From a virus (taxonomy: Duplodnaviria; Caudoviricetes): a DNA stretch of 64,000 bases. The notes beneath the pieces are model-generated. The model had not been told where the DNA came from. It was given only the letters and a program-made list of their open reading frames with translations, and ran no database searches. Positions 3,924 to 58,718 of this stretch are shown in pieces (the first letter of the stretch is position 1; each line of letters begins with the position of its first letter). Location of the stretch: IMG/VR virus record IMGVR_UViG_3300014206_000010, positions 1 through 64,000 of that record; one strand, written 5' to 3'. Both the position numbers and the translations under genes were made by a program.

Positions 3924-3924
3924 A

Positions 3925-6038: not shown

Positions 6039-6051
6039 TTTAAATTTTTTT

Positions 6052-6843: not shown

Positions 6844-6886
6844 ATAATTTTTATTTATTTACAACTTTATAACTGTATAATATCAA

Positions 6887-7153: not shown

Positions 7154-7155
7154 AA

Positions 7156-11008: not shown

Positions 11009-13003
11009 TTAATTTCCTCCTGATTTAGTTCTATTTGGAGCAGGCATAGTTGAAGTTCCAGTCATTTTACCCAAAATTTCATTCATCTTTGATAACACTT
11101 CTTTTTTACCTGTAGTCCAAGTTGTTATGAATTCAGTTGACTGAGTACCAAGCGTATCTTTTTCTTCCTTTGCCCATTCATTAATAGCTTTTTGATTCTT
11201 TATAGGTTTGCCTAAAAGATTACCTGGTAAACCACCTTTATTAAATTGATTTATATATTTATCAAGTCTGTCTGGAGCGACATTCGGTAATAAAGATTTG
11301 AAAGCAAAATATCCCATTCTGGTATCAGTTCCTCCGAATTGAGAAGTTATTCTTTGAATAACAGATTTCATTATCTTTCCTTCATTTTCAGGATTTCTTA
11401 ATTCACGATCAATTAAATCCATACGACCTCCTGTTTTTGGGAATAAATCAGCAACTGAACTATATATCAAAGCCCTCATTCTTTCGTTCATAGGATTTTG
11501 AATCATATTTTGAAACGATTGAATATCACTTCCAATCCTTGTGTCTTGAGTTATTCCTTTAACAGAAGAAAATGCAGAAAGCATTTTATTTGCTGTATCA
11601 TAATTAGGTTTATCAGTTCTATTCATATACGAACCCATCAATTGTTGTTGGATATCATATTTTTCTTGAACTCTTGTAAAATCATTCATAGAAACGCCAG
11701 AACCTTTAATTTGGTCTAATATTTCTACCAATCTTGTTATAGCATCTGTTACATTAATACCGTATCTGTCATATTTACTACCTTTTTGTAACGCACCTTG
11801 ATCAAGAGCTAAATTTCTTTCTAACCCAACTTGTCTTAAAGTTTCAGCAAACCAATCATTAGAAGTTCCACGTGCTTTAACACGTCTTGCTGCCTCTCCT
11901 CCGAACTCTTCTGTACCATAACCATAGTCGCTTATATTCATACCTCTCAATGACATGTTAGGTAATGTAGCACCTAAATATTGAGAAGCTTTGCCTCCTT
12001 GATACCCTGAAGTGGAACGAAATGCAGCAAGATTAGATAATGATTCATAAGAAGTGGAAGTCCCAGTGAGCATCTTAGCTGCTCCAGCAGTAACTCCTAC
12101 CCAACCTAAAAATTTCAAAGCAGTTTTTAATCCCATACCAGAAAGTCCTGCTATTGCTGAACCTCCTCCCATTATAGTTCCTCCAATATCTCCGCCTTGC
12201 ATCCCATTGAACATTCCCATAATACCTTGTGATCCCTGAAGCATAGAATCATAATAAGGTTTTCCTTGAACTTGATTTCCTCCCGCCAAAACTTTTTTCA
12301 ATTGTTCATTCACATTTCTCAAACGTCCACTTGCATCCATAGCTCCAGATTCTGTTTGAGATAAATCACGTTCTGTCATTAAAGATTTTTGTTGAGCTCT
12401 TAATTTTCCTATATATGAATCAGGAGAAGCTCCAGCTCCTTGTCTTGATTGTCGATTAAAATATTCAGTAAGTTCTTTTATAGCAGAAGTAAGTTCAGAT
12501 TCAGATTTTGTTTTTTCAGTTTTTTCTTCTTCATTTATTTGTTCTTCTTCAACGTCATATTTACGTCCGACTCTTTTATATTCTGTTTCTCTTTGTTGTT
12601 CAACCTGTTGTTCAAGAACATTACGATATAATGGGTCATTAGCTTTATTTCCAAGTTTAGATAAACCAGATTTTCTTTTCTTTTCTACATTTTTATCAAT
12701 AGTATCATAATCAGAAGACATACGTTTTTGCATATCTGATCTTCTGGCATTATAACGTGATGAAATATCATCTTCAATTTTTATCTTTTCTTGACTTCTT
12801 ATAGCTTCGATTGCTTCTCTTGTAGATGTAACTCTTTGAGATTGAATTTCAGTTCTTACTTCATCTATCAACCTATCACTTGGAGGGATAGGAGTTGGAC
12901 GTGAAGAAGGTTCGACTCCATTAGTTGGATTGCGTGAAACATTGTCAAGTTCGTTCCTTAGCTGAGAAGCATTCCCACGTATATTTACTGTTACATCTGG
13001 CAT
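11009..13003 (-). CDS. Tape measure protein
   Basis: Follows tail chaperones; helical, with Gly/Ala/Met-rich hydrophobic segment. Confidence 0.7.
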   Translation of the reverse strand: MPDVTVNIRGNASQLRNELDNVSRNPTNGVEPSSRPTPIPPSDRLIDEVRTEIQSQRVTSTREAIEAIRSQEKIKIEDDISSRYNARRSDMQKRMSSDYDTIDKNVEKKRKSGLSKLGNKANDPLYRNVLEQQVEQQRETEYKRVGRKYDVEEEQINEEEKTEKTKSESELTSAIKELTEYFNRQSRQGAGASPDSYIGKLRAQQKSLMTERDLSQTESGAMDASGRLRNVNEQLKKVLAGGNQVQGKPYYDSMLQGSQGIMGMFNGMQGGDIGGTIMGGGSAIAGLSGMGLKTALKFLGWVGVTAGAAKMLTGTSTSYESLSNLAAFRSTSGYQGGKASQYLGATLPNMSLRGMNISDYGYGTEEFGGEAARRVKARGTSNDWFAETLRQVGLERNLALDQGALQKGSKYDRYGINVTDAITRLVEILDQIKGSGVSMNDFTRVQEKYDIQQQLMGSYMNRTDKPNYDTANKMLSAFSSVKGITQDTRIGSDIQSFQNMIQNPMNERMRALIYSSVADLFPKTGGRMDLIDRELRNPENEGKIMKSVIQRITSQFGGTDTRMGYFAFKSLLPNVAPDRLDKYINQFNKGGLPGNLLGKPIKNQKAINEWAKEEKDTLGTQSTEFITTWTTGKKEVLSKMNEILGKMTGTSTMPAPNRTKSGGN

Positions 13004-19636: not shown

Positions 19637-21130
19637 TTATTTTACAAATTTACCAATATTGATAAATCTAACTAATTTCTTAGGAGCATATAAAAATGGA
19701 GTTCCATACATTAAAATCATAAACCTAAAGGCAGGAGAAAGAACAGCTAAATCCATTTTCATCAATGGAGCTAACTGAGCGAATTCAACTACTTCGTTAT
19801 CAAATTGTGTAAGGAAAGATTGATCGGTATCTGGTAAATAACGATTCATATCACGAATAGAACCTGCACTTCCGCCATCATATCCACGTGAAAGATCGTC
19901 CAAAGATACTTCAAACAAAGGAAAGAATTCACTATCTACTCCAGCTCCAGCTTTTGTTCTGTAAATTCTATAAGCGGTTGCTTTGTTAACTCCACCTCCA
20001 TCAGTGAATTTTAAATCAATAGCTCCGCCAGATACGGCAGATACAGCTGTATTGTAAATTGCTAAATCGGATTCTCCAAATCTATTAATTCCAGTAACAG
20101 CATAATAAACGTTTCCAGCGTCTGAAGTTTCCCATTTACCATCAGAAACAACAGGTTGAACAGTAATAGCATCTGTCTCAGCAAAAACTGGTTTTGTCGA
20201 TGCATTTTGAGAATTAGCAGGAGTTGATGAATTTTTACTTGGTAATTTCTTAAAGAAAATATCATGATTCAATCCAATTCTTCCGAATTGAGAATCAAAA
20301 GCCTGAACTCTCTGACCCATGATACCATTAGAAACTCCTTCGCTATTAGGCATGATAAATTTATTACCATAGAAGTTTTTAACAAAGCTTGAAAGAACAG
20401 CAGGAGCACCATAAATTTGAGTTCCTAAACCATAATTTTCTACAATAGAATTAGCAGCAGTTTCAATAGCAGATTCAGTTAATGCCGAACCTCTTAAATC
20501 AACTACCATTTCAGAATTCATATAATCTGCATAAGAAGCCCAAGCATCAGATTGCTGCTGTTGAGCTAAAAATCCGTTAAATTGTTCAGGAACATTCTTT
20601 TCGTTACCAAAATATAATCCCTGATTCAAAGTACGTAAAATCCAAAGTGTTCCATCTTTTATGGTGCGTTCCATAATAGAACCAATCATTGTATTTACAA
20701 GAGTCATCTGATGAGTAACACTTTTAGTTACACCAAGATATTTAACCAACTGAGCTCTACGTACAAAGATACTGTCTTCTTCTTCTGGTAATTCTCCTTC
20801 TCTGTTCCAACCGCCACGATTAGCACCATAAGAAGTCTGTTGATTGTATTCTTCGACTGTGTTATAAGCAGCCTTTTTAGGAAGGTCTTTCCATAAACGA
20901 ATATCATTTTCACGGAAGGTGATATGCTTTAGAGTTTTCTCCAAAGATTCAACCTTCAAGGGAGCACCTGACGCTGTAGTCAAGTCTGCGGTATCACGAC
21001 CAGTAATTTGTTCAGCATTCAACGCTTTATTTAAAGCGTCAACATTTTCAGAACTTCCTGCGCCAAGGTGAAGACCGTCTTGCTGAGAGGCATAACCATA
21101 ATCAGCTAAATTGATTGATAATCTTTCCAT
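19637..21130 (-). CDS. Major capsid protein (Herelleviridae-like)
   Basis: 'GAPLKVESLEKTLK', 'AYNTVEEY', 'RRAQLVKYLGVT', C-terminal 'LAPLMKMDLA...MYGT...APKK'. Confidence 0.92.
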   Translation of the reverse strand: MERLSINLADYGYASQQDGLHLGAGSSENVDALNKALNAEQITGRDTADLTTASGAPLKVESLEKTLKHITFRENDIRLWKDLPKKAAYNTVEEYNQQTSYGANRGGWNREGELPEEEDSIFVRRAQLVKYLGVTKSVTHQMTLVNTMIGSIMERTIKDGTLWILRTLNQGLYFGNEKNVPEQFNGFLAQQQQSDAWASYADYMNSEMVVDLRGSALTESAIETAANSIVENYGLGTQIYGAPAVLSSFVKNFYGNKFIMPNSEGVSNGIMGQRVQAFDSQFGRIGLNHDIFFKKLPSKNSSTPANSQNASTKPVFAETDAITVQPVVSDGKWETSDAGNVYYAVTGINRFGESDLAIYNTAVSAVSGGAIDLKFTDGGGVNKATAYRIYRTKAGAGVDSEFFPLFEVSLDDLSRGYDGGSAGSIRDMNRYLPDTDQSFLTQFDNEVVEFAQLAPLMKMDLAVLSPAFRFMILMYGTPFLYAPKKLVRFINIGKFVK

Positions 21131-21155: not shown

Positions 21156-22661
21156 TTATTTTACAATTTCATATCCAAATTCATTCTTAATACGTGCAAT
21201 TATGCTCATAGGTAAAGATTTTGTTGCTTCAAAATGAGTAACAGCTTTGCTAAACTCATCATCAAACCCCTTTGAGAAAGTAGCTTGGTCAAGAATTTCA
21301 GCAACCGCACCCCTTTGTTTACTCATGCTAACCTGATTAGTATTTAATTTTGTTTTGCCTCTATTACCAAATTCATTATCATTTGATTTGGCAAATTGAC
21401 GTTCTACTGGATGTGAAGATGATAATGATTTCGGAGCTGGAACTTCAGAACCAAATGCTTCAAGTTTTTCAGACATAACTGAAATAGTTTCATCTTGAGC
21501 TTTTACAATGTCAAGAAGTTCGTTTTCACGACCAGCTGCTGATACAAGTTTTTGACTCGCGTCTTTGACCATAACTCCAAGTGCTTTTATGTACTTAGAA
21601 TTAATTTGATGAGAAGTAGTAATTGCTTTTTCAATTCTGTCAAAACGATTACCACCTTCTGCTTTTTGTACTTTTCCTTTTTCGCCTTTTTTATTTTTAG
21701 CATCGTCATCATCTTCTTCTTCCTCTTCAGTAGCTTCGTCTTCTTCAGCTTCTTCAGGTTTATCAGTTTTTGACTTTGCTTTATTAATAGGCTTTTTAGA
21801 TTGCACGCTTGAAGTATCGCAACCTTTTTCTACGTCATTCGCATCAATATCAAGCCCAAGAGCTTCATATGCTTTTTGAATATCGTTTTCTGTTACGTTT
21901 TTTCTACCTTTCATATTTGCAAATTTTATTAACATTAAATGAATTTTTTCTGCTTTTCCAATACTAATAGCTGGAATGTCCTTGAAAAGTCTTTCAACAA
22001 CCTCTGATTTTGAAAAAGTTTGTTTTTTTATTTTTTTATCAACTGATTCTTTTTTCAAAGGTGCAGCAGCTATTGTGTCTAAACTCTTTTCTTTTTCTTT
22101 TTCTTTTTCTTCATCTTCTTCAAAATCATCAATTTCTCCTTTAATGATATTGGCAAAAGTTTTAGGATTTTTAGGTTGATGAGTAACAGCCACTCCAGTG
22201 ATAACAGCCTTTGTTATTTTTTTATAATCCGAAGAATTTTTATCATTTGATTTACGTTTCAATACTCTACCTTCAATAGAATATCCCAAACGTCTTGTCT
22301 TTGAATCTTTTTCAAGAGTTTGAGCAAGTTCCCAAACTTCACATGCTATTTTACTGGAAGGATATAAATCAGTTTCAATATACAAACCTTCTGGACGAAT
22401 TTCTGCTTTTGAAGGTTCTCCTATAATTGTAGCAGGTTGACCTTTTGCTTGATGATGCCAATTAACCATTCCACTTTTTATCAATGGTTTGATATCAAAA
22501 CCTTTTGGGTCAAGAAATTCACCATCGCTATCTTCATCTGAAGTTGAAGCTATACCTCCCAGCCTCATTATTTCTTCTCCTGTGGTTGGGTCAATTACAG
22601 CTTCGTTTGCTTTTTCAATTGGACACCAAAATTCAAAACTATCTTCTATTGTTTTTGACAT
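21156..22661 (-). CDS. Prohead protease plus scaffold (start probably MSKTIE at 22661)
   Basis: 'GIASTSDEDSDGE', 'VNWHH', 'LGYSIEG', 'GVAVTHQPKNP'; long acidic/coiled C-terminus. Confidence 0.85.
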   Translation of the reverse strand: MSKTIEDSFEFWCPIEKANEAVIDPTTGEEIMRLGGIASTSDEDSDGEFLDPKGFDIKPLIKSGMVNWHHQAKGQPATIIGEPSKAEIRPEGLYIETDLYPSSKIACEVWELAQTLEKDSKTRRLGYSIEGRVLKRKSNDKNSSDYKKITKAVITGVAVTHQPKNPKTFANIIKGEIDDFEEDEEKEKEKEKSLDTIAAAPLKKESVDKKIKKQTFSKSEVVERLFKDIPAISIGKAEKIHLMLIKFANMKGRKNVTENDIQKAYEALGLDIDANDVEKGCDTSSVQSKKPINKAKSKTDKPEEAEEDEATEEEEEDDDDAKNKKGEKGKVQKAEGGNRFDRIEKAITTSHQINSKYIKALGVMVKDASQKLVSAAGRENELLDIVKAQDETISVMSEKLEAFGSEVPAPKSLSSSHPVERQFAKSNDNEFGNRGKTKLNTNQVSMSKQRGAVAEILDQATFSKGFDDEFSKAVTHFEATKSLPMSIIARIKNEFGYEIVK

Positions 22662-22742
22662 AATTATAACAAATAAGGTCAAAGAGTAATTAATTTATAC
22701 CTTTGACCTTATTATAACTGTCAATGTAAAAATGTTCAATTC

Positions 22743-23309: not shown

Positions 23310-23692
23310 TATTTAATTTTTAATTGTGAAAAATCAATACAATCTTTATTTAACCAATCAATAAGTTTATCAGATTTTTCTGTATTTTTCATTTTTAAAA
23401 AATTATCAACTGTAATATTGTAAGAAGATAAATACATTTTAAATCCTTCTTCAAGCAATCCAATTCTATTTCCTTTTTCTGTTATCTCTTGAAATTCTTT
23501 AGATAAATCTTCAAATTTTTTGGTTCCTTGTATAGCATCAAAATATGCTTGCCTCTGATAAGGTTGAAGCAGAGGAAACTTTCCCTTAAAAGGAATAATT
23601 TGAGATGGTTTTTTGAGTGTAACGTACTTGCTCGCTCTTCCTCCCATTATTGAAACAAATCTTTCTCTTAACATAGCTTTATTTTTTAACAA
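23309..23692 (-). CDS. Hypothetical protein
   Basis: Coupled to both neighbours. Confidence 0.5.
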   Translation of the reverse strand: MLKNKAMLRERFVSIMGGRASKYVTLKKPSQIIPFKGKFPLLQPYQRQAYFDAIQGTKKFEDLSKEFQEITEKGNRIGLLEEGFKMYLSSYNITVDNFLKMKNTEKSDKLIDWLNKDCIDFSQLKIK

Positions 23693-26039
23693 TAACTTTA
23701 CTTCTATTCAAAACTATCATAAATGAATTTGAACAACCGTTTCCATGAGGTTCTATAATAGCATCATATCCCTTTAATGCAGCATATGTTCCAATTCCTT
23801 CTTTATTACCATTACGAACTGATTCATAAATTCCAGAAATTATATCTCCGTCTGGATCTTTAGTTTTCTTTAAATCGGATATTTCTTGAGTAGCTTTATT
23901 CAATTCTGATTTTGTTACTTTTATGCTTGAACGTAATTTAACTGCTTTATCACCAATATTATCCAATTCTTTTTTAACAGCTTCTGTAATTACTTTATAA
24001 TGATTATTCATTATCCAATCTTCAAATCTTTTAACAGGATAATTATAAGCACTGGTAAAAGCATTCTTTCTTTTTATAGCATTATTTTCATATTGATATC
24101 TACTTAACATAAAATGCTCTTTTGAATTTGGAAGTTTAAAAACAAATATATCAGTTCCTTTACCTTTTTCTTTTACAGAACCTCCGTTCTTCTCGACCCA
24201 ATCAAACAATTTATTTTTTACAAAATCATCAAATTTAGGATAATCTGGATTACCGTCCTTATCAAGTTTTCCCCAATTAGTATTATCAATTTCTAATTGA
24301 CGCATAACTAAAGTATCTTCATCCCAATGCATTTTACTTTTTACAGAATTTTCAACATTTACAGTAAGATTATCATAATCATCTTGATTTTTTTTCAATT
24401 GAGAATTTAAAGAATCAATATCAATTTGTTTTGCATCAACCGCTGCTTTATCAAAAGTAACCAAAGAAAGTATTTCATCTTTTAAATCTTCTACCATAGC
24501 AACTTTTGCTTTTGGATCAAGACAACATTCAAGAACAACTCCTGACCTTCCCGCATAAGAATGAGCTTCCTCATAAGCATCAGAATTTTTATAAGTAGTT
24601 TGAGTATTACTATCATCTTCCCCATCATTTACATGCGTGTAAATTCCAGAACCATGAATTCCAAGTGTTCCAAAAAAACAATTATCATTATATTTAAACT
24701 CATCAGCATAAAAATCCGCATCGTGCTGACCGCCATTCAGACCACGAAACATTTGATATTTTGTCTGTTTAACTGTATTCCAATATGAAGTTTCATCAAC
24801 TACTTTTGGACGTGCATCAAACCCTCTTTTTTGACAAATTGAACTTAATAATTCCCATCCAACTGTATAATTAGTAGCACCTAATTTATTATAATAACTT
24901 TTCCCGCTTTGATTATTCCATAAAGAGTTTTTTTCATCATCTGAAAAGTCTTTATACATATCAGCATCACTTTTCAGTTTTCTCGGTAATACTTTTCTGT
25001 TACCTTTAGCAAGTTTTGCTTTTAAATCGTTTTTTATTTTTTTTAATGATTTAAAACGTTCATCAAACGTTGAAAAAAGATTAGAATTACTTTCAACTAA
25101 AAATCCGATAACATCATTTCGCTTTTTTAACACTTTATCAATTTGATCAATATAATCCTGAGTAGTAAGATTAGCAACAACAGCAGGATTATATTTAATC
25201 ATTGAATCAAAATCTATAACATTATCTCCAAATGGTTTAGAATTTCCTTGAGCTTTATAATTCAAAGCTCCGCCATTATCTACTCGTATTAATCTGCCAG
25301 CTGAATCAATTAAACAATTATCATTCTGATAAATATCCCAATTAGCTAAAAGAGCGTCTACAACAAATCCCTTAGCCATCTCATCATAATCTTTACTACT
25401 TGAATTTTTAGTCATAGGAATAAATTTGGATAACATTACAGTTTCTCCATTTTCTTCATATAACTCATAATCGGGGACTCTTAATCCCATTAAATCATAA
25501 AGTTGATTAGTTAAATATTCAGAATGAACATGTTCATTCGAAGTATTTGTACCTTTTTTCATCACATACTGATTGCCCCTAACATCTTCTACTAATTCAG
25601 CTCCAGTACTACCACCTAACTTTTTAACCACCTTTAAAGTGCTTAAATCATTTGGAAATAATTCGTTGATGTATTTTTGTTTATCAATAGATTTTTTAGA
25701 ACCATCTACTAATTGTTTACCAACTTTACTCTTACCTCTAAAAACACGCCAATCGTATTTAGTCTTAGCATTCGGAGTAGCTGCATAAATATACATTACC
25801 CCATCTACAACTTTAGTTTGACCAGGAATAACAGCCTTACAAATTTCTGTATCAGGTTCTATTTCATTAATATGATCATATAAAGATTTTGAGACGCATA
25901 CATAATATTCATAAGAGTCACCAAACTCATCAGATTTAATTTTATAAGCATCGCAAGCCTTTATAAGAATATCATCAGAAATATCACTAAGAAAATTTCC
26001 CTCAGCAATTTTGTCTAACGCTTTTCTTATATTTTTCAT
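23679..26039 (-). CDS. HipA/CtkA/LepB-like (PI3/4K-fold) kinase fused to an ADP-ribosyltransferase-like domain; putative internal head protein
   Basis: Kinase: LGGSTGA, YVMKK, SEYL, DALLANWD, RVDNGG. ART-like: MFRG, GSGIY, AHSYAG, GYDAII, MIVLNRSKV. Confidence 0.7.
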   Translation of the reverse strand: MKNIRKALDKIAEGNFLSDISDDILIKACDAYKIKSDEFGDSYEYYVCVSKSLYDHINEIEPDTEICKAVIPGQTKVVDGVMYIYAATPNAKTKYDWRVFRGKSKVGKQLVDGSKKSIDKQKYINELFPNDLSTLKVVKKLGGSTGAELVEDVRGNQYVMKKGTNTSNEHVHSEYLTNQLYDLMGLRVPDYELYEENGETVMLSKFIPMTKNSSSKDYDEMAKGFVVDALLANWDIYQNDNCLIDSAGRLIRVDNGGALNYKAQGNSKPFGDNVIDFDSMIKYNPAVVANLTTQDYIDQIDKVLKKRNDVIGFLVESNSNLFSTFDERFKSLKKIKNDLKAKLAKGNRKVLPRKLKSDADMYKDFSDDEKNSLWNNQSGKSYYNKLGATNYTVGWELLSSICQKRGFDARPKVVDETSYWNTVKQTKYQMFRGLNGGQHDADFYADEFKYNDNCFFGTLGIHGSGIYTHVNDGEDDSNTQTTYKNSDAYEEAHSYAGRSGVVLECCLDPKAKVAMVEDLKDEILSLVTFDKAAVDAKQIDIDSLNSQLKKNQDDYDNLTVNVENSVKSKMHWDEDTLVMRQLEIDNTNWGKLDKDGNPDYPKFDDFVKNKLFDWVEKNGGSVKEKGKGTDIFVFKLPNSKEHFMLSRYQYENNAIKRKNAFTSAYNYPVKRFEDWIMNNHYKVITEAVKKELDNIGDKAVKLRSSIKVTKSELNKATQEISDLKKTKDPDGDIISGIYESVRNGNKEGIGTYAALKGYDAIIEPHGNGCSNSFMIVLNRSKVIVKK

Positions 26040-26040
26040 A

Positions 26041-27756
26041 TTAATCTTCTCCTAATAATAATGTTTCTGCTTTTTCCAAAGTCATATCTTCTTCAAAGAA
26101 ATCATTTTCTTGAGCCTTAAAAGTATTTGGCGTTGCTTGTTTTTTGTCACCCGATGTTTCTATTTCTTCTTCTGAAAATAAATCTTCGGCTTTTTTTAAT
26201 TCATTTGAATTAGTTTCATCCAATAAAATATCTTCAGCCTTAACAAGCTCTTCTGAAGATTCTGAAGAATCTCCAAAATCAAGTTTAGCAGCTTTGGTTA
26301 ATATTGCTGTTGCTTTTTCTCTCCAATCCTTAATTTTTGAACCAATTAAAGAAGCAAATGCTGGATTTTTACGTTTTTCATTTGCTTTATCAACTTTACG
26401 TTTATTGATTAAAACTTCTTGAAAAGTTCTTGTTGTAAATTGAGCTGGATCAATATTATTTTCATCTTTCTTTATAATCCCTAAAATTTCATCACGTTCT
26501 TTTCTATCGTCAGCTTCATTATCAAGTCTTGGAGCCTGCTTGAACTCAAAATCTTGATAACGATTTTCTATAACTTGAATTGTTTCTGGCACAGTCATAT
26601 AAATTTCAGAAACCATCATAGCTCTACTTATGATTGCTTTTGTATCTTCACTTTCAGAAAGAGTAGTTAAATCTTTATTAGTCATTATTACAATGCGACC
26701 AGTAAATTCAAAATTTTGTTTAATGTCATCAGGGTCACCAACTATACGTGCTCCAGTAGATGCAGTTGCTTTCTTCATAACAGCCGCACAATCACTTCTT
26801 CTTAAGACCTTATCATTATCATCAAAGATAATAATTTTATTGTTATGAGCTTTAAGAATATTCAATAATTGTTTTCCACTATTAACATCAGGTGCTTCAA
26901 ATGTATCATAATCATCATCTCCTGGTGCGTCTCCTACTCCAAATGGTTTAAGATTCAAAAGTTCAGCCATTTTCTTAAATCCGTAAGATTTACCAACACC
27001 AGCTCCTCCTGCTGAAATCATAAATCTTTGTTCATTATTATCCAAGAATTCAAGATATTGTTCATTTAAGTCTTGAACAACCTCTACTGGATCCATGTAG
27101 TCTTTTTCTTTTTTCTTCATCTTATAAACAAATTGATCATATTTTATACGACCTTCTTTTGTTTTAAGATTGAACATTTTTTTTACCCTATCGTCATTTC
27201 TGTCAAGATACCATTTTTCAGTTATTTTGTCACCTTCATCTACACCTCCATCAGTATCTATTTCAGCAGCAACATCTGAATTATCTACTGTATCTTGATC
27301 ATCTGAAGTTGAAGTATCATTTGTTTTAGCTCCTACATTACCAGTCATCTTCATTAATTGAATAAGAGTTCCTGAAGTATCAACTTTAGACATATCAAAA
27401 TTTCTTCTTCCAAGTTCATCATACGCTATCTTACGCATTTGAGCATTACCATTTTTACTATTAGCAACCTTTAAAAGATTATCATCAGAAGTTTTGGTTG
27501 CCCAGATTGCTAATCGTTGAGAATCCATAGGTTTACTCTGACCTTTAACCTTAGCATTTGCTATCTGTTGAGTAGTAGGTTTTGAAGAAGTTTGATTTGA
27601 AGATACATTAGAATCTTTTGATTGAGTTTTATTTTTAATTGGACGCCAATCATATTTTCCTGATTTGTATTCAGTCCAAGCCCATTTACCATTTGGGTGA
27701 ACGTCACCCACTTGTCTTTTAATAGCTTTTTCAATTAAATCTTTTTCCTTTGTCAT
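26041..27756 (-). CDS. AAA+-type P-loop ATPase with N-terminal Trp-rich module and acidic xxKA-repeat tail
   Basis: Walker A GGAGVGKS, Walker B IIIFDD, 'FEFTGRIVIMTN'. Confidence 0.7.
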   Translation of the reverse strand: MTKEKDLIEKAIKRQVGDVHPNGKWAWTEYKSGKYDWRPIKNKTQSKDSNVSSNQTSSKPTTQQIANAKVKGQSKPMDSQRLAIWATKTSDDNLLKVANSKNGNAQMRKIAYDELGRRNFDMSKVDTSGTLIQLMKMTGNVGAKTNDTSTSDDQDTVDNSDVAAEIDTDGGVDEGDKITEKWYLDRNDDRVKKMFNLKTKEGRIKYDQFVYKMKKKEKDYMDPVEVVQDLNEQYLEFLDNNEQRFMISAGGAGVGKSYGFKKMAELLNLKPFGVGDAPGDDDYDTFEAPDVNSGKQLLNILKAHNNKIIIFDDNDKVLRRSDCAAVMKKATASTGARIVGDPDDIKQNFEFTGRIVIMTNKDLTTLSESEDTKAIISRAMMVSEIYMTVPETIQVIENRYQDFEFKQAPRLDNEADDRKERDEILGIIKKDENNIDPAQFTTRTFQEVLINKRKVDKANEKRKNPAFASLIGSKIKDWREKATAILTKAAKLDFGDSSESSEELVKAEDILLDETNSNELKKAEDLFSEEEIETSGDKKQATPNTFKAQENDFFEEDMTLEKAETLLLGED

Positions 27757-27810: not shown

Positions 27811-29265
27811 TCAATCTGTTTCCCATTCAATAGGAAGTTCTATGTGATAAAAATCTTCCATTATTTCATGAGTTATCTTCTTTACATTTTCGGAGTCTTT
27901 ACCTTTTTCAAGTTCTTTTTTTATAAGTTTTTTTCCTCCAGCACATAATCTTATTATTTCTTGAGCGTTCTTTTTTGCATTAAATAATTCATTTACTAAT
28001 TCAAAATTATGTTTTGTGTCTTTTAAAAATTTAGCAGGAGACATATTATTAATTTTTTCTATTAGTTCTTCACCAAATTCTTTAGGTGTAGCATTTCATG
28101 GAATAATGATTGCTCTGACGTTTTCAAATAATGGGTCATATAAATCCTTATCACTATATTCAGAAAGTCCTCTATAATCACGTAACACTGGATAAGCACC
28201 GCATAACATAGCTTCAATAATAAAACCATTTATATGAGTTTTACAATAACGTGCATAATGTTTAGACCAAGATGGGTCAATAGCAAATTTAGTATTTTTT
28301 AAAGTTGATACAACTTCACTTCCTGACATTTGACCCATATATTTCATACCAAATTCAATAGCTCTATCCCAAAGAGAAAGTTTACCGTCAAGTTCCTTAG
28401 GAAGTTCAGGGTCACGCTTTATTGTGCACATATAGTTACTTTTCGTCTTCGTTTCACTGGTCATATAGTTATATTCTATGCCTGTACCAGCAATTTTAAT
28501 AGAAAAACGTTTACCTCTTTCGCCTTGAATATAAGGGACAGAAGCAATGAGCTCTTCCATGTGTTTCATACTTTTAAACATATGAGCTGCAAAAAAATCT
28601 TCCTTCCTATTATTCATTATTTTAATAGGCATTCTTGCATTATCTGGAATATACCGTGGATTTAATAACAAACTTCTCGGAATACCTATTTCAGAACAAC
28701 ATTGATAAGCAGCTAAATGAGCACAACCTAAAAACAATATTTTATTTTTTAAAGCTGAAATATTACTTGCTCTTACATTAAAATAAGCATCGTGACAAAG
28801 AAAAACTTGTTTAATATTAGAAGGTAAATCAAAAAACTTCCACCAGAAATTAAAATCTATTCCCTTTTTATTCCAAATAGAACTTTTTGTTGGCATGAAA
28901 TTCCATAAAATTATATCAGCATCTTCAACAAGTTTTTTCCATCTTTTAACAGAATCTTTTTCATACACTCCTATACGATTGCTTGGTGGTAAAAAATATC
29001 CATAATAATTATTTCTCCAATATCCTGTTGCTTCATCTTTTTCATATCCTCCTGCTTGAGATTGAAATTTTATTTTTCTTTGATATTCTCCGTTTTCAAG
29101 TTCTTTTACTTTTTTATCATAAGTTTTTTGTGTAGTTGAAGCAGGAGTCATTTGAGCGACATCTACTTTATGACCTAAATATTGGAATGCTTTCAACATA
29201 CTTGCTACATATTCCACAATTCCTCCATATTTTGCTATCTGAAAATCTGCTATAAATATTTTCAT
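27811..29265 (-). CDS. GT-B glycosyltransferase interrupted by an in-frame TGA at 28096-28098
   Basis: 'MKIFIADF..KYGGIVEY', 'GFIIEAMLCGAYPV'; ORF 27811..28044 is in the same frame 17 codons after the TGA. Confidence 0.65.
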
Positions 29266-29276
29266 GATTAAAACAA

Positions 29277-29933
29277 TTAATTGTTAATGGAATAAATTTC
29301 TTCTGGTAATTTTTTCTTTATATATCCTTGTTCGTAAAATTGTAACCCCGATTGCGAACGATAGAATTTAGAAGCAAGTTTCCATTTTATTTCATGAAAT
29401 TCTTCAACTGGAACAGAACATTTTAAAATGTATTTCTGTTTTTGTTTTTCTACTTGAACTTGAGAACGTCTTTTATAAGAGTGCGGAAATTCTCTATAAT
29501 AAAGAAGGTCAGAATAATGTTTTTCTAATATGTCTTTTATAAAGAAATGAAAAGGATGTCCAATTCCCCAAGGAGCCACAACTGAATATCCCTTATTATT
29601 TTTTAAAAATTTATTAATCCATTTAACAACTCCAAGTTCTATTTCGTTTAATTTTTCTTTCCCGAAATATTTGTTAAGATGTTCATATGTTGCTTCATGT
29701 GTTACTTCTTTATAATTCTTATGAAATTCATAGTAACTTTCATCGTGAAAATTTAAATTCAAATGATGAAAAGAAATATTCAAAAAATTATATAATTTTT
29801 CGTCTTCTAATATACGTTTTGAATCATTCTCTACAGTAAGAATCTGAACTTCGTATTTTGACGAAAATAAAAAATGGGAACAACTAAATAATGCGTCATC
29901 GCTATGAGGCTGCACAATTAACAATTTTTTCAT
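29277..29933 (-). CDS. PIG-L/LmbE-family deacetylase
   Basis: 'VQPHSDDALFS' (HxDD), 'GHPFH', 'YRSQ'. Confidence 0.8.
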   Translation of the reverse strand: MKKLLIVQPHSDDALFSCSHFLFSSKYEVQILTVENDSKRILEDEKLYNFLNISFHHLNLNFHDESYYEFHKNYKEVTHEATYEHLNKYFGKEKLNEIELGVVKWINKFLKNNKGYSVVAPWGIGHPFHFFIKDILEKHYSDLLYYREFPHSYKRRSQVQVEKQKQKYILKCSVPVEEFHEIKWKLASKFYRSQSGLQFYEQGYIKKKLPEEIYSINN

Positions 29934-29939: not shown

Positions 29940-30869
29940 TTATTTATTGACTTTTATGTTTAACTTTATATTCTTTAACTTTGGATTAGCACTTATTTTC
30001 TTAATAGGAATTGTAAACGCTCTTAATTCTGAATTCCAAGCAAAATTAGGTTTTTTATTATTTATGGTACAACGACAATATGGATGAATTGGTGAAATAG
30101 TAGGCAACCATTCTTTTACCTTTCTTCCAATATTATTTCCATTTGCTATAATATCAGATAATTTAAAAACAATAGGTTCACTATCTGGGTTTTCTGGGTC
30201 AGTCAAATAAAGTTCTTTACATCTTTGACATGCACCAGGATAGACATCAAACCAAACTTCAGCTTTGCTACCATATTGTTTTAATATACTTTGAGCTCTT
30301 CCTGAATTATATGCTTCATGCGTAAGATAATAAGCTATTCTCAACCAGTCAACTTCCCAATCTTTTGAAGTTTCAGCAAGGTCTGCTGCAAGTCCTCTTG
30401 CTCCAAGTCTCAATTCAACAGATTTTATAGTTTTTTCTTTAATCATCTTTTGAACTAACAGTGATTGTTGATTGTTATTTAAAACAACATTACTTAATCC
30501 TGTTCTCATTCTACTACCTAAATTGGTAATATCAGTATATGCTCTTTGCTTAACGGTTTGTAAAGCAAATTCTTCTTCTTCAGTTAATGGTATAAAATTA
30601 CCTGAAGATAAAAATCTTTGAAATTGAGCATATGTCATTTTTTTAGCTCTTGCATCTCCAATAGCTTCTGCTAATATTCCAAACAAAAAAGCATGTTCAA
30701 TAATACCTTTTTTATTCTTGTATTTATTCAAATCAATGCCAATGGCTAATAATATATCTTTATCACTTTGAGAAAGAAAATCCAATCCCAATTGACCAGC
30801 TACAAATACTAACTCATATCTTTTGAGTATTGATAGCATATCTTGAATTTGACCTTGGTTAAAAATCAT
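29940..30869 (-). CDS. Mu gpF-like minor head protein
   Basis: 'GACQRC', 'PIHPYCRC'. Confidence 0.75.
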   Translation of the reverse strand: MIFNQGQIQDMLSILKRYELVFVAGQLGLDFLSQSDKDILLAIGIDLNKYKNKKGIIEHAFLFGILAEAIGDARAKKMTYAQFQRFLSSGNFIPLTEEEEFALQTVKQRAYTDITNLGSRMRTGLSNVVLNNNQQSLLVQKMIKEKTIKSVELRLGARGLAADLAETSKDWEVDWLRIAYYLTHEAYNSGRAQSILKQYGSKAEVWFDVYPGACQRCKELYLTDPENPDSEPIVFKLSDIIANGNNIGRKVKEWLPTISPIHPYCRCTINNKKPNFAWNSELRAFTIPIKKISANPKLKNIKLNIKVNK

Positions 30870-34390: not shown

Positions 34391-36163
34391 TTATATTCCT
34401 TCTTGCTTTAAAAAATTATCAAATGCTTTTACAATTAAATTTTCTGTTTTTTCTCCTTTAGTAGTTTCTTCTCCTTTAGTAGTTTCTTCTTCTTCATTTT
34501 CTTCTGAATATAAATCAAAAGGATTAGATTGTTTTTTGTCATCCTTCTTAGTTGTTTTTAAATTACCGTTTTCAACTGAATTTTGTTGAGGCATTAAATT
34601 ATTATTTTCAATTGAATTTTGTTGAGGCATTAAATTATTATTTTCAATTGAATTTTGTTGAGGCATTGATTGAATATTTCTACTTTGAACAAAAGTAGCA
34701 TTATTAGGAGAATCTCCTCCTTCTAATGGTTTCATTTCATATTTCTCTCTTGCTTCATTAACAGTCATAAAACTATTAACTTTATCAATATCCATCTTTA
34801 ATTCTTCATCAATAGTCAAACCGTTTAATCCCATGAACGAAAGTTCAAAATCAGGATTTATTTGTTCAACGATATATTTATTTATTTTTCTTTGAATAAA
34901 TTTAAGAAGAGGATACAAACCTTTATCTTTTGAATGCTGCAATCTTTGTTCTTGACTTCCTTCAAACATTCCTCCACCTCCTGAAGAACGACTAATATCC
35001 CAACCTATTTCAGTTGGGTCAATTGAATAAACAGCAGAAGAAAGTTTTATCAAATATTCCATCCAGGAACTATATTCCATGTCACGATTGTTTTTCTGAA
35101 GGTCAATCCAATCTACATCCGCTTCTACAACAGGAGTTTTCCATGATTGCATTACACCCGAAATCATCGATTGCCATTGTTGTTTAAATTGTTGCAAAGC
35201 CGCTTCGTTGTTTGTTCCTTTAATTCTTAATAACCCTTTTGGAGCCGAACCTTGACTGAAAAAACGTCTATTATATTCATCTCCCCAAAGCATTGAAGTA
35301 ACTACATTAATAAGTTCTTCAAGTTCTGAACAACCATAACCATTTGACCAAATAGAAGTAGAAGGATTGCGAATACCAAAACATAATTCCCAAGGATAGA
35401 ATTCATTGACTTTCACGTTTTGATATACTTGTACAAATGAAGGATAATAACCGTGAATCTTTGGACCAAATTCATTTCTGTCTTGCCAAACATTTGAACC
35501 CTGTCTTTGAAAAAATACATTATTGTAATCTTTGTCAAAAAAGGAATCAGCCATTCTGAAAGTAGAAGCGTCGGTTGCCATAAAAGATTCAAGATTTCCC
35601 CTTCTATTTCGAATACACTCAAAGGTCATTTGGTCATATACTAAAGAATCATCTACTATTTTACGAATAAAAGTATCAAAGTCATCATGTTCCCATTGAC
35701 TAACATTTCCCCCCTTTAATATAAAATCTGTGATAGCAAAGGCAATCTTTTTGTCTTTGTCAGTCATCTTTTGTTCAATTCCACCTTTTGGTTTTTTTCT
35801 TATCACAAAACCAGTAGAATATTTATTTTCTTGAGGCTCAGCAAAATCTGCTACTTGATTTTTTCTTGTTTTTATAATAGAATTGATGATAGGAGCTTTC
35901 GACATTCGCTTTAATGTTGTGTAAGACAAAGCAAACGGCTTATCTTTATAACCCAGATTAGCATTAAATTCTAATGGATCAATAAAAAATGCTTTAGGAT
36001 TTTGTTCAACTTTATTTTGAATGGTATTAAATACCTGATTAGCTTTAACCATATCATCGGGTGAATCTGAACGCAAAGCTTTTTCAAGCGTTCTAAATTT
36101 CTTTGCTTTCAGTTTAACTTCAGCAAGTCCTATTGCATCTAATTGTTGAGATAAATTACTCAT
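34391..36163 (-). CDS. Portal protein
   Basis: 'IINSIIKTRKNQV', 'DSLVYDQ', 'GYGCSELE', 'FFSQGSAPKG', 'VYSIDPTEIG', 'SKDKGLYPLL'. Confidence 0.92.
   Translation of the reverse strand: MSNLSQQLDAIGLAEVKLKAKKFRTLEKALRSDSPDDMVKANQVFNTIQNKVEQNPKAFFIDPLEFNANLGYKDKPFALSYTTLKRMSKAPIINSIIKTRKNQVADFAEPQENKYSTGFVIRKKPKGGIEQKMTDKDKKIAFAITDFILKGGNVSQWEHDDFDTFIRKIVDDSLVYDQMTFECIRNRRGNLESFMATDASTFRMADSFFDKDYNNVFFQRQGSNVWQDRNEFGPKIHGYYPSFVQVYQNVKVNEFYPWELCFGIRNPSTSIWSNGYGCSELEELINVVTSMLWGDEYNRRFFSQGSAPKGLLRIKGTNNEAALQQFKQQWQSMISGVMQSWKTPVVEADVDWIDLQKNNRDMEYSSWMEYLIKLSSAVYSIDPTEIGWDISRSSGGGGMFEGSQEQRLQHSKDKGLYPLLKFIQRKINKYIVEQINPDFELSFMGLNGLTIDEELKMDIDKVNSFMTVNEAREKYEMKPLEGGDSPNNATFVQSRNIQSMPQQNSIENNNLMPQQNSIENNNLMPQQNSVENGNLKTTKKDDKKQSNPFDLYSEENEEEETTKGEETTKGEKTENLIVKAFDNFLKQEGI
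34570..34670 (-). repeat. About 3 x 36-nt coding tandem repeat in the portal C-terminus
   Basis: MPQQNSIENNNL repeated in the translation; a separate 18-nt x2 repeat (EETTKG) at ~34450-34490. Confidence 0.85.
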
Positions 36164-56745: not shown

Positions 56746-58082
56746 AATCTTATACTTTTATTTGTTAAAAAATCCAACGCTTCATTAATTTCTTGGTCAG
56801 CTGGAATAGCATCAGCCGAAGGTTCAAATCCCGCAAGATATGCTGCTTCTAACATCTGTTTATCATCTTGGTCTAAAACATTTACCCTTGTTGAATTGTC
56901 GCTCATATTATAATTTAGTCCTTCAGGAATATATTCAATTCCATATTTATTAAAGAGTGCTACAACGCTATCCCAATTACATTCTTCTCTGCTATCATTT
57001 TTTTCAAAGAACATTTTATCAACCGTTATTCTATAACCCTTGATAATAAGTTTTAACGCTTTTGCTTGTGCTTCTGAAAGTTTCTTGTTACCTTTAGCAG
57101 TTTTATGCATAGTAACAAATTCGTCAATTGTTAGTTCCTTCTTTACCTTCTTTGCTTTTTTTACTTTCTTCACAGACTTTGTTTCCTTCTTAACAACTTT
57201 CTTTACAGGCTCAGACTTCTTTGTAGAAGTCGTTGCCTTGTCAGTACGTTTTCCCTGCTTCTTGTCAGCTGGATTAATTCTCCAATCGAATTTTCCTTCA
57301 GCGTATTCCGTCCATAACCAAGTCGGGTGATTAGGATGAACGTCGCCCACTTTGCGAACAGTTTTAGCTTTCTTCTCCTTCGTCTGTTCCCCTTTATCAG
57401 CCTTCTTAGTTTCTTTCTTTGTAGATGCTTTATTTACTTTAGCAGCTTTCATATCTTCAGCTTTCATATCATAAAAACTCATGTTTTCCTGATTAGAGAA
57501 AATAATAACATCATAACCAGTTTCTGTATCATAAGTTTCACAAATGTTTTTCTTGACTAAACTACCCATAACACCTTTAACGGTCTTGACTTTCATATTA
57601 AGTAAATTAGCAATATCATTACAATCAATATAACTATAAACTTCTCCAAAATTATCTTTCAGTTGGTCATTCAATAACAAAATCACTTTAATTTCTTTTT
57701 CTGTTAATTTGAACGAATCCATAATTTCTTTGACGTTCTTATAATTAATAGCTTTGACAACTTTTTCAGTAGGTTTGCTTGCATCTTCTAAATTCTTTAA
57801 GCGACAAAACAAGATATTCTGAATGTCTCCGTTTGTAACATCTTCGCTTTTAATATTTTTTAACTCAGCAAGATTATTCCAATTATTGAGAATATATTTA
57901 GCAAGTTCCCTTGCTTCTTTAGCAGCTGGACGTCTTTTGCTTGAAATAGCAGATAGTTTTACAGCTTTAATTTCATTGAGCTTTATAAGACACTCATCCA
58001 TTACAGAAATAACCTTTTCAACTGCGTTACTTACATTCTTATTATCTTCCACCTTTACGGTCTTATTTAATTTTGTTGTCAT
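56742..58082 (-). CDS. Early multidomain protein: MarR-like wHTH plus Trp-rich module plus Lys-rich linker
   Basis: 'LTEKEIKVILLL...DIANLLNMKVKTVKGVMGSLVKKN'; 'VGDVHPNHPTWLWTEYAEGKFDWR'. Confidence 0.55.
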   Translation of the reverse strand: MTTKLNKTVKVEDNKNVSNAVEKVISVMDECLIKLNEIKAVKLSAISSKRRPAAKEARELAKYILNNWNNLAELKNIKSEDVTNGDIQNILFCRLKNLEDASKPTEKVVKAINYKNVKEIMDSFKLTEKEIKVILLLNDQLKDNFGEVYSYIDCNDIANLLNMKVKTVKGVMGSLVKKNICETYDTETGYDVIIFSNQENMSFYDMKAEDMKAAKVNKASTKKETKKADKGEQTKEKKAKTVRKVGDVHPNHPTWLWTEYAEGKFDWRINPADKKQGKRTDKATTSTKKSEPVKKVVKKETKSVKKVKKAKKVKKELTIDEFVTMHKTAKGNKKLSEAQAKALKLIIKGYRITVDKMFFEKNDSREECNWDSVVALFNKYGIEYIPEGLNYNMSDNSTRVNVLDQDDKQMLEAAYLAGFEPSADAIPADQEINEALDFLTNKSIRL

Positions 58083-58160: not shown

Positions 58161-58718
58161 TTATTGATGGGGATGTTTCTGTATGAAGAATGTCATACTT
58201 TCAGTTTCCGAACAGCTTTTACGGATTTCTTCCCAACTCTGACAATAACCTTCTATTTCTATAAAATCACCATTCCAACCGTTCACTGAATAAGAATAAT
58301 GAGTAAGCGGTCTCCAATTAGGATGTTTTTCAAAGTCTTTTGATTTTCCAGTTTTAGAATTTTCTATTGTCGTAGAACAACTTCCTATACGTCCCATTAA
58401 ATATGACCACCTGTTACAAACTCTAATATCAGTTTCTTTACCGAATTTGTTATACCAAAGTTTACATTCTTCTTTTGTTAAATCATGTTTTGTGCCGTTG
58501 ATAAAAGATTTTTTATTTTTGAAAGCAACCTTTTCTTCTACTTTAGGTTCTTCTGATTTAGGTTCTTCCAATTTAGGTTCTTCTACTTTAGGTTCTTTTG
58601 CTTTGGTAGATTGAGTCTTAATAGTTCTCCAGTCAAATTTTCCTTTAGAATATTCAGTCCAAGCCCATTTACCGTTTGAATGAACATCTCCAACTTTTCT
58701 TGAATTATTTGCTTTCAT
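58161..58718 (-). CDS. Early protein with N-terminal Trp-rich module and EEPK repeats
   Basis: 'RKVGDVHSNGKWAWTEYSKGKFDWR'; 15-nt tandem repeats at ~58530-58595. Confidence 0.6.
   Translation of the reverse strand: MKANNSRKVGDVHSNGKWAWTEYSKGKFDWRTIKTQSTKAKEPKVEEPKLEEPKSEEPKVEEKVAFKNKKSFINGTKHDLTKEECKLWYNKFGKETDIRVCNRWSYLMGRIGSCSTTIENSKTGKSKDFEKHPNWRPLTHYSYSVNGWNGDFIEIEGYCQSWEEIRKSCSETESMTFFIQKHPHQ

What the first reader, a model, noticed from the sequence alone, without database searches (positions are those of the whole stretch)
27643..27716. A ~25-aa Trp-rich module (VGDVHxNxxWxWTEYxxGK[YF]DWR) reused in unrelated proteins
Copies: ATPase N-terminus RQVGDVHPNGKWAWTEYKSGKYDWR (27643-27716); wHTH protein RKVGDVHPNHPTWLWTEYAEGKFDWR (~57279-57357); 185-aa protein RKVGDVHSNGKWAWTEYSKGKFDWR (~58625-58700); divergent copy in the kinase-ART, IPGQTKVVDGVMYIYAATPNAKTKYDWR (~25748-25830). 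A 23-nt exact DNA match (27668-27690 = 58651-58673) suggests recent shuffling. In both head-cluster proteins the module starts just after a putative cleavage site (IEKA|, ICKA|), so it would become the mature N-terminus. I do not recognise the family. Inference: a small beta-sheet targeting or interaction tag (packaging signal, DNA binding or host-target docking) linking injected and early proteins.
Basis: partly seen in the sequence, partly recalled or inferred. Interest (0 to 1): 0.75.

Follow-up and report, generated by a model that had tools for sequence, protein, structure and literature searches.

The report
Trp-rich mini-domain on phage cargo proteins
A 25-residue tryptophan-rich beta-sheet mini-domain with no known relative is attached to dozens of unrelated proteins in a clade of uncultured ~100-kb phages; in many it sits just behind a probable head-protease cleavage site, which suggests a shared handle on proteins packed into the capsid.

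Summary
Three ORFs on the minus strand carry near-identical copies of VGDVHxNxxWxWTEYxxGK[YF]DWR. The fourth, in the kinase-ART protein, is a probable divergent homologue.

- **Extent.** The module defines a large unannotated family: 399 representatives at 50% identity, 1397 clusters at 90%. All 79 viral loci but three belong to one clade of ~100-kb phages with an SPO1-like capsid, probably infecting Bacteroidota. It was not found in 400 sampled bacterial genomes or in cultured phages.
- **Fold.** AlphaFold2 predicts a small beta-meander (pLDDT ~90). It has no Pfam, PHROG, NCBIfam or PDB match by sequence or fold.
- **Partners.** It joins about 60 unrelated partner regions, including an ATPase, a glutamine deamidase, zincin peptidases, a CotH kinase and MutS-I.
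- **Cleavage.** About half of the instances follow a helical leader that ends in h-E-K-A. The related Kayvirus capsid protein is deposited as starting just after h-x-K, at the homologous site (window: ALNK|AL). The module would then become the mature N-terminus of processed capsid cargo.
- **Not supported.** The 23-nt DNA identity does not show recent shuffling, because synonymous sites are saturated.
- **Function.** The binding partner remains inferred. My best reading is a conserved docking handle on packaged and ejected proteins.

The module is a new domain family and a new variant of a known theme. The scan did not find it on other DNA.

The parts
27643..27717 (-). Trp-rich module, copy 1 (aa 14-38 of the 571-aa ATPase-like head-cluster protein, ORF 26041-27756)
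   Evidence: HMM E 1e-21. AF2 pLDDT ~90 over aa 21-40, strands 25-31 and 34-39 with a bridge at 19.
27718..27756 (-). Short leader MTKEKDLIEK|AIK with the predicted prohead-protease site (cut inferred after K10, between nt 27727 and 27726)
   Evidence: Analogy to the capsid-protein site. Low pLDDT and no helix in the AF2 model.
57279..57356 (-). Trp-rich module, copy 2 (aa 243-268 of the 446-aa protein, ORF 56742-58082). It lies mid-protein between Lys-rich linkers, after a weakly MarR-like winged helix.
   Evidence: Weak MarR/AdcR profile match, E 0.006.
58626..58700 (-). Trp-rich module, copy 3 (aa 7-31 of the 185-aa protein, ORF 58161-58718), at the very N-terminus with no leader
   Evidence: In relative L005 the syntenic gene keeps the module but has a different C-terminal domain.
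25746..25826 (-). Probable divergent copy (aa 72-98, PGQTKVVDGVMYIYAATPNAKTKYDWR) in the 786-aa kinase/ART-like protein, ORF 23679-26039
   Evidence: hhalign probability 72%, P 3.4e-5. Conserved in 13 orthologues. AF2 strands 75-78, 81-87 and 95-99 at moderate confidence.
25827..26039 (-). Helical leader of the kinase/ART protein (aa 1-71) with three h-x-K-A motifs (IRKAL, LIKAC, ICKAV)
   Evidence: Five predicted helices.
21156..22682 (-). Head maturation protease (N-terminal ~175 aa) fused to a scaffold-like region. It is the presumed enzyme that cuts the leaders.
   Evidence: phrog_1028 E 1.6e-33. 33% identical to the procapsid protease of Bacillus phage SP-10, E 3e-25.
19637..21130 (-). 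Major capsid protein with N-terminal VDALNK|ALNAE, the reference site for the cleavage motif
   Evidence: phrog_752 E 2.6e-80. SPO1 gp6.1 (PDB 9vel) E 2e-71, with the same VDALNKAL..
34391..36163 (-). Portal protein, marking the upstream end of the head cluster
   Evidence: Pfam Phage_portal E 3e-19.
27668..27690 (.). 23-nt exact DNA identity with 58651-58673, encoding GKWAWTEY
   Evidence: Explained by identical peptide plus codon bias (P ~0.04 for this block), not by recent exchange.

Best explanation
The segment is an autonomous mini-domain of about 25 residues: a three-stranded antiparallel beta-meander (VGDxH / KWVWTEY / KFDWR) followed by a flexible basic linker. It is private to one clade of ~100-kb phages with an SPO1-like capsid.

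In the head-cluster proteins (the ATPase here; the kinase/ART protein in degenerate form; deamidase, zincin-peptidase and kinase proteins in relatives) it lies 3-5 residues behind the last h-x-K|A site of a helical N-terminal leader. I read the leader as a propeptide that takes the protein into the prohead and is removed there by the head maturation protease. The module is then left as the new N-terminus of a capsid-internal protein that is later ejected.

The retained module would act as a common docking handle. It would hold all these cargo proteins on one invariant partner: the packaged DNA, or the capsid or portal interior. The same handle is reused in the winged-helix protein and its small neighbour.

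Shown: the family, its fold prediction, its architectures, its strong conservation, and the motif match to the capsid-protein maturation site.

Inferred: the cleavage, the packaging and the binding partner.
For: - **Family size.** 399 representatives at E<=1e-3 and 159 at <=1e-10; 1397 clusters.
- **Fold.** Beta hairpin plus bridge at pLDDT ~90.
- **Partner diversity.** About 60 unrelated partner clusters, including the effector-type domains Gln_amidase, Peptidase_M90, ATLF, CotH and MutS_I.
- **Gene arrangement.** Tandem head-cluster genes each begin with leader plus module, between the portal and the capsid gene and next to the conserved 309-aa head protein.
- **Upstream motif.** h[EQ]K[AG] lies within 10 aa upstream in 119 of 266 unique instances, with the module starting at a median of aa 34. 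Leaders carry 1-4 such motifs.
- **Motif enrichment.** [LI]xKA[LIVC] is 6.4-fold enriched in this genome's head proteins (P 0.001, post hoc). It occurs near the N-termini of the capsid protein, the portal, the ATPase and the kinase/ART protein.
- **Reference cleavage site.** PDB 9row capsid protein (439 aa) starts at SFQTGYG, directly after ...VVK of the 463-aa precursor. This aligns with SP-10 NLNK|ALEAGYG and window ALNK|ALNAE.
- **Protease.** The window protease is homologous to the Herelleviridae one, E 3e-25.
- **Conservation.** The module stays 61-83% identical when the rest of the ATPase orthologue has fallen to 30-34%.
- **Basic tail.** The 25 residues downstream carry net charge +2.2 to +3.5, against +0.6 background.
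Against: - No proteomic or N-terminal data exist for any member, so cleavage and packaging are inferences.
- The motif enrichment test was designed after seeing the motif.
- About a third of instances (winged-helix class, 75 of 266) and the 185-aa protein have no leader. They lie in a DNA-metabolism region, not the head cluster.
- Leader-plus-module proteins also occur outside head clusters (L006, L061, L077).
- Leaders occur without the module. The module is therefore not needed for whatever the leader does.
- No partner has been identified.
- Fold searches gave nothing, so nothing supports any particular ligand.
Confidence: 0.4

Rival explanations
1. Nucleic-acid-binding mini-domain. The Trp/Arg/Lys face of the small sheet, together with the basic tail, binds DNA, possibly the phage's own modified DNA. 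This would bring regulators and effectors onto the genome. Packaging would then be due to the leader alone.
For: - A basic tail follows the module in both classes.
- The module is fused to a MarR-like winged helix between Lys-rich linkers, and to MutS_I.
- Near-invariance across phages of 30-50% GC fits a ligand that does not evolve.
- Weak Foldseek rows are SH3/Tudor/chromo-type sheets.
Against: - The module itself is nearly neutral, with mean net charge +0.3.
- There is no significant similarity to any DNA-binding fold.
- The related cultured phage MA9V-3 has a different motif at the same positions. This is unexpected for a generic DNA binder.
Confidence: 0.2
2. Docking tag for a conserved host hub, such as RNA polymerase, the sliding clamp, the ribosome or the membrane. 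It would direct injected enzymes and early regulators to the same host machine.
For: - The cargo domains are host-modifying types: kinase/ART, deamidase, peptidases and CotH kinase.
- The module is shared between head-cluster and non-head proteins.
- Strong conservation fits a conserved host surface.
Against: - The hosts are unknown, and there is no candidate partner.
- The clade spans GC 30-50%, and probably several host genera.
- Sequence variants of the module coexist in adjacent genes of one phage. This is odd for a single host site.
Confidence: 0.15
3. Self-association element. Modules of different cargo proteins pair by sheet extension to build one hetero-oligomeric internal or ejection complex.
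For: - There are several copies per genome, 1-5.
- Distinct variants lie in neighbouring genes (L042, L052).
- A tiny sheet with aromatic residues on both faces needs a partner surface.
Against: - One complete genome has a single detected copy (G005).
Confidence: 0.1
4. The module is itself the capsid-targeting signal. The h-E-K-A stretch would be only a structural cap, not a cleavage site.
For: - It has an N-terminal position in most head-cluster proteins.
- It is reused on unrelated cargo, like encapsulin or T4 targeting peptides.
Against: - The module is present in proteins of the replication region without leaders.
- Leaders exist without the module.
- The EKA stretch is not predicted to pack on the sheet in the ATPase model.
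- The EKA stretch matches the capsid-protein maturation site.
Confidence: 0.1

Closest known systems
T4 capsid targeting sequence and internal proteins (IPI-III, Alt), and the ejection proteins of phiKZ/SPN3US-like phages
   Same: Short N-terminal elements are shared by unrelated proteins that are packed into the prohead, trimmed by the prohead protease at a short motif and injected (background: PMC9026906, PMC10052503, found). The leader here shows the same logic.
   Different: The T4 signal is about 10 unstructured residues that are removed. Here a folded 25-residue module is predicted to stay on the mature protein, and it also occurs in non-head proteins. The cleavage motif differs: h-x-K|A/S here, against L/I-x-E| or A-x-E|.
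MuF polymorphic toxins and polyvalent proteins
   Same: Both place variable effector domains (ART, kinases, peptidases, deamidases, MutS-I) in the head-gene context, presumably for delivery with the DNA (PMC5576092, PMC5512222).
   Different: There the effector is covalently fused to MuF or to other domains in one giant protein. Here the effectors are separate genes that share a small leader plus module. The neighbouring 309-aa head protein is only MuF-like by eye (HPYCRC motif), with no Pfam or PHROG hit.
Encapsulin cargo-loading peptides
   Same: A short conserved tag on unrelated enzymes docks them to the inside of an HK97-fold shell (own knowledge).
   Different: Those are linear peptides, usually C-terminal, with no proteolysis. 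No sequence relation is known, and none was tested here.
Small three-stranded sheets (WW, SH3/Tudor/chromo, Sso7d) and MORN/YwqK-type hairpin repeats
   Same: Similar size, a beta-meander and conserved aromatic residues. The stretch NGKWxWTEYxxGK is reminiscent of MORN_2-type repeats (by eye).
   Different: No significant match by sequence (Pfam at E<=1; PDB) or by fold (best Foldseek E 1.7; best Z 2.3). It is a single copy, not a repeat array.
Motif G-E-[VI]-R-x-F-x-G-R-x-Y-I-x-T-x-D-G-W-K in cultured Chryseobacterium phage MA9V-3
   Same: It has the same position: the N-terminus of the orthologous ATPase and of neighbouring head-cluster proteins, behind h-x-K-[AGS] motifs and a similar leader.
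   Different: Homology is not supported (hhalign probability below 2%). It is shorter and has a different consensus, and the canonical module is absent from that genome.

Membership tests
Any Pfam, NCBIfam or PHROG family covering the module | Significant profile match over the 25-residue segment | tested here: not met
   No family covers the module in any of the four window proteins (Pfam E<=1; PHROGs; NCBIfam) or in 150 representatives.
WW / SH3 / Tudor / chromo-like small beta domains | Structural superposition over most of the domain with a significant score | tested here: inconclusive
   Foldseek against PDB: best E 1.7, with SH3/Tudor pieces of 25 columns at E ~5. VIA-align wide: best Z 2.3. 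The model is too small for a decisive answer.
Prohead-protease-processed capsid cargo (T4 internal-protein-like) | N-terminal leader carrying the protease's recognition motif | tested here: met
   h-x-K-[AG] lies upstream of 144 of 266 instances. The same motif lies at the homologous maturation site of the capsid protein. The protease is homologous to that of Herelleviridae.
Prohead-protease-processed capsid cargo (T4 internal-protein-like) | Protein physically present in virions in a cleaved form | not testable with these tools
   Needs virion mass spectrometry or N-terminal sequencing. No cultured member carries the canonical module.
MuF polymorphic toxins / polyvalent proteins | Effector domain covalently fused to a MuF (or portal) domain, or many domains in one polypeptide | tested here: not met
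   Module proteins are separate genes with one or two domains. The adjacent 309-aa protein has no Phage_Mu_F match even at E<=10.
The Trp-module family itself: kinase/ART copy as a member | Profile match over the whole module and the same secondary structure | tested here: inconclusive
   The HMM matches only the tail (E 0.014). hhalign gives probability 72%, P 3.4e-5. AF2 predicts three strands in register, but at pLDDT 64-73.

The most novel reading that the evidence does not exclude
Leader plus module form a portable two-part cargo system for SPO1-like capsids. The leader loads any protein into the prohead and is cut off at h-x-K|A. The exposed Trp module then tethers the cargo to the genome, perhaps to its modified bases, so that it is delivered with the DNA. 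If so, a tag of about 60 residues would suffice to load and inject foreign proteins into Bacteroidota cells.
Probability: 0.2. Interest if true: 0.75.

Novelty: new variant of a known kind. Interest (0 to 1): 0.58.

Why it matters
- The module marks, in sequence alone, a large and varied set of probable injected effectors and early proteins. These include kinase/ART, deamidase, peptidase and ATPase proteins, in a widespread uncultured phage clade.
- It therefore gives a simple search handle for finding such proteins and their unknown domains.
- The inferred protease motif (h-x-K|A/S) links this clade to the Herelleviridae capsid lineage. It yields testable predictions of mature protein ends.
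- If the module proves to be a loading or tethering tag, it could be used to pack chosen proteins into phage heads.
- A stable 25-residue Trp-rich sheet is also of interest as a minimal fold.

Tried and rejected
- **Cultured phages.** tblastn of the module against 50,697 cultured phage records found no match. The canonical module is absent from Chryseobacterium phage MA9V-3 and Bacteroides phage DAC16.
- **Database and fold searches.** ESM Atlas returned no usable hit. Foldseek PDB and VIA-align wide returned nothing significant. A PDB sequence search returned only a chance 13-residue match to glutathione reductase.
- The search for related loci with P0056 found nothing.
- **'Recent shuffling' rejected.** Synonymous sites between the copies are saturated.
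- **MA9V-3 motif.** Homology of that motif to the module is not supported.
- **Literature.** Searches for the Herelleviridae capsid cleavage site gave no direct statement. I used the deposited PDB sequences instead.
- **Bacterial genomes.** The GTDB pattern scan used narrow patterns and found only two contigs. A profile search of 400 genomes from the phylum of one holder found none beyond the phage contig. The module was not found in those genomes searched, which does not prove absence.
- **Habitat.** Only one run, a landfill metagenome that is probably the source sample, holds the DNA. This is no independent evidence of habitat.

Full report
**1. Observation**

The window is the first 64 kb of an 88,451-bp viral contig (CheckV 89% complete, GC 29.5%). 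Almost all of its genes lie on the minus strand.

Three ORFs carry the motif exactly as described:
- the 571-aa P-loop protein, ORF 26041-27756, module aa 14-38;
- a 446-aa protein, ORF 56742-58082, module aa 243-268;
- a 185-aa protein, ORF 58161-58718, module aa 7-31.

A six-frame scan and a profile search of the whole contig find no further canonical copy. Each copy scores E ~1e-21 against a family HMM. In all three proteins the module is flanked by low-complexity linkers, so it behaves as an independent unit.

**2. Size of the family**

- A profile of the three copies, run against 1.84 billion representatives, gave 399 proteins at E<=1e-3 and 159 at E<=1e-10. The module sits at the N-terminus, in the middle or at the C-terminus of proteins of 34-650 aa.
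- A word-indexed search gave 1397 clusters at 90% identity. All are metagenomic, and none has a name or a Pfam domain.
- The consensus is [KR]xVGDxHPNGKWVWTEYxPGKFDWR. G, W, W, T, K, F, D, W and R are nearly invariant.
- After masking the module, 505 flanking regions of 379 proteins fall into about 63 BLAST clusters.
- Recognisable partner domains are Gln_amidase, Peptidase_M90, ATLF-type zincin, CotH kinase, MutS_I, AAA_22 and DUF6496. Most partners are unannotated.

**3. Where the module occurs**

- Of the 79 IMG/VR loci that encode it, all but three (L006, L061, L077) carry one of two gene sets. One set comprises homologues of this window's head cluster: the 309-aa head protein, PIG-L-like, GT4, ATPase and kinase/ART genes. 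The other comprises homologues of the 446-aa protein.
- These contigs are typically 95-101 kb. Several have terminal repeats and are rated 100% complete. GC ranges from 30 to 50%.
- Complete genomes carry one to five copies.
- The capsid protein is closest to Bacteroides phages of the DAC16 type (44%) and Chryseobacterium phage MA9V-3 (38%), then to Herelleviridae (~35%; SPO1 gp6.1, PDB 9vel, E 2e-71).
- The canonical module was not found in cultured phages.
- It was not found in 400 genomes sampled from the phylum of a MAG that holds one such phage contig.
- The module is therefore a private invention of one uncultured phage clade.

**4. Fold**

- AlphaFold2 on aa 1-48 of the ATPase, with a 149-row alignment, gives pLDDT ~90 for aa 21-40. 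It predicts strands 25-31 and 34-39, with a bridge from residue 19.
- This is a minimal three-stranded meander: VGDVH / KWAWTEY / KYDWR.
- Foldseek and VIA-align find nothing significant, and a PDB sequence search finds nothing.

**5. The fourth copy**

- The family HMM sees only the KTKYDWR tail of the kinase/ART copy.
- The segment KA-x-x-PGQTKVVDGVMYIYTATPNAKTxYDWRV is strongly conserved in 13 orthologues, down to 40% overall identity.
- Relatives contain intermediate forms, such as EKAHNAGDLFYVNGKTYVYTEYAPGKFDWHV.
- Profile-profile comparison gives probability 72% and P 3.4e-5 in the expected register.
- AF2 predicts strands at 75-78, 81-87 and 95-99 behind a five-helix leader (moderate confidence).
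- I take it as a probable degenerate homologue.

**6. No recent shuffling**

- The 23-nt identity is real.
- Outside that block, synonymous positions differ as often as expected for unrelated sequences with this codon usage: 8 of 16 codons are the same, against 9.1 expected.
- The block itself has a chance of about 0.04, given the identical peptide.
- Each copy sits in the same orthologue in distant relatives.
- The copies are therefore old and held by selection on the protein. In ATPase orthologues the module keeps 61-83% identity where the rest of the protein has dropped to 30-34%.

**7. Leader and cleavage motif**

Two main contexts exist.

In class A the module follows an N-terminal leader, for example MFEDIQKHRQAVQENIEKAFEIGFTGNEDLEKAHQ-VGD.
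- 119 of 266 unique instances have h[EQ]K[AG] within 10 residues upstream, and 25 more have hxKA.
- K lies mostly at -4 or -6 from the V of VGD.
- Leaders carry one to four such motifs, and the module starts at a median of aa 34.
- Such genes often stand in tandem between the portal and the capsid gene (L012, L042, L052, L014).

In this genome, [LI]xKA[LIVC] is 6.4 times more frequent in head-cluster proteins than elsewhere (8 against 5 hits; P 0.001, a post hoc test). It lies near the N-termini of the capsid protein (ALNKAL, aa 33), the portal (aa 26), the ATPase (aa 8) and the kinase/ART protein (aa 4, 25, 66).

The capsid-protein site can be calibrated:
- The Kayvirus capsid protein is deposited as a 439-aa chain (PDB 9row). 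It begins at SFQTGYG, immediately after ...VVK of the 463-aa precursor (PDB 5lii).
- This aligns with NLNK|ALEAGYG of Bacillus phage SP-10, annotated as a precursor, and with VDALNK|ALNAE in SPO1 gp6.1 and in the window.
- The window's protease (phrog_1028) is 33% identical to the SP-10 procapsid protease, E 3e-25.

I therefore infer that this protease cuts after Lys in h-x-K|A/S. The leaders would then be propeptides, and the module would become the mature N-terminus (A-[HR]-x-VGD...). This is an inference from homology and motif statistics. No proteomic data exist.

**8. Class B and leaderless copies**

- The 446-aa protein and its roughly 125 relatives have the module mid-protein, in the form KTARKVGDVHPxHPTW.
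- It lies after a region that matches MarR-type repressors only weakly (E 0.006), and between Lys-rich linkers.
- The 185-aa neighbour starts directly with the module. In relative L005 the syntenic gene keeps the module but has a different C-terminal domain.
- These genes lie in a DNA-metabolism region.
- Leaders also occur without the module, and leader-plus-module genes occur outside head clusters.
- Leader and module are therefore separable. The leader is the better candidate for the packaging signal, and the module must do something that both packaged and non-head proteins need.

**9. Mechanism**

- The near-invariance of a tiny domain, in proteins that otherwise diverge freely, points to a partner that hardly changes.
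- The 25 residues after the module are basic in both classes (+2.2 and +3.5, against +0.6 background). The module itself is almost neutral.
- I favour a common docking handle that holds capsid cargo on one invariant partner, either the packaged DNA or the capsid/portal interior (confidence about 0.4).
- The rivals are pure nucleic-acid binding, docking to a host hub, self-association, and the module as the targeting signal itself. None can be excluded with the tools at hand.

**10. Comparison with known systems and novelty**

- The logic resembles T4 capsid-targeting sequences and internal proteins, phiKZ/SPN3US ejection proteins, MuF polymorphic toxins, polyvalent proteins and encapsulin cargo peptides.
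- It differs in having a retained, folded, Trp-rich module, separate effector genes and a Lys-specific motif.
- Cultured Chryseobacterium phage MA9V-3 has an analogous motif at the same positions. Homology is unproven, but the phage offers an experimental entry point.
- The module is a new domain family. The system is a new variant of a known kind.

Noticed in passing
L087 (Chryseobacterium phage MA9V-3, PV245944.1) 3379-5016, 5623-6129, 6371-7933: A cultured relative with the same head cluster carries four copies of a different small motif, G-E-[VI]-R-x-[FW]-x-G-[RK]-x-Y-[IR]-[KR]-T-x-x-G-W-K. They sit behind h-x-K-[AGS] motifs, including at the N-terminus of the orthologous ATPase. It is a positional analogue of the Trp module, and homology is not supported.
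   Followed up: partly
window 26041-26150 (C-terminal ~35 aa of the ATPase): The acidic tail has three repeats of h-x-K-A-E-D/T-L (LVKAEDILL, LKKAEDLF, LEKAETLLL). The last lies 11 residues from the end and is conserved in L004. It carries the same K-A motif as the leaders, so it may be trimmed or may act as a second targeting element.
   Followed up: no
window 28096-29933; L012, L042, L052: GT4 glycosyltransferase and PIG-L-like deacetylase genes are conserved inside the head cluster, between the 309-aa head protein and the ATPase. In relatives a radical-SAM-like gene with CNLGCSFCG is also present. This hints at virion protein glycosylation or a related modification.
   Followed up: no
L012:8497-10200: The homologue of the window's 309-aa head protein is 568 aa and contains an intein (Pfam Intein_splicing E 4.7e-12, plus Hint-type hits).
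   Followed up: no
window 29940-30869: This 309-aa head protein looks MuF/SPP1 gp7-like by eye (C-terminal PIHPYCRC). It has no Pfam or PHROG match, even at E<=10, so the label is unverified.
   Followed up: partly
L014:5405-5680; L042:8146-8736; L061:7029-7445 and 11810-12091: These small proteins carry the same helical leader (MxxxIxxxRxxhxxNIxKxF...) but no Trp module. This shows that leader and module are separable.
   Followed up: partly
L016:5080-6738: This 553-aa protein has the module at aa 315-348, followed by a papain-fold glutamine deamidase toxin domain (Pfam Gln_amidase E 1.6e-10). It is a clear effector-type cargo.
   Followed up: partly
L007 / G006 contig C5 (CALNBJ010000005.1, 97,221 bp): A complete relative of this phage is binned inside a Bacteroidales MAG. 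One module-encoding gene is split across the contig ends, so the contig is circularly permuted or terminally redundant. It holds four module genes.
   Followed up: partly
L089:1533-2276 (Bacillus phage SP-10 procapsid protease): The C-terminal part of the protease contains VSK-TMEAGYATTPETQSDGGALRRESVE. This mimics the capsid protein's maturation site and mature N-terminus (NLNK-ALEAGYGTSPDTQSGGGAFRVESLE).
   Followed up: no
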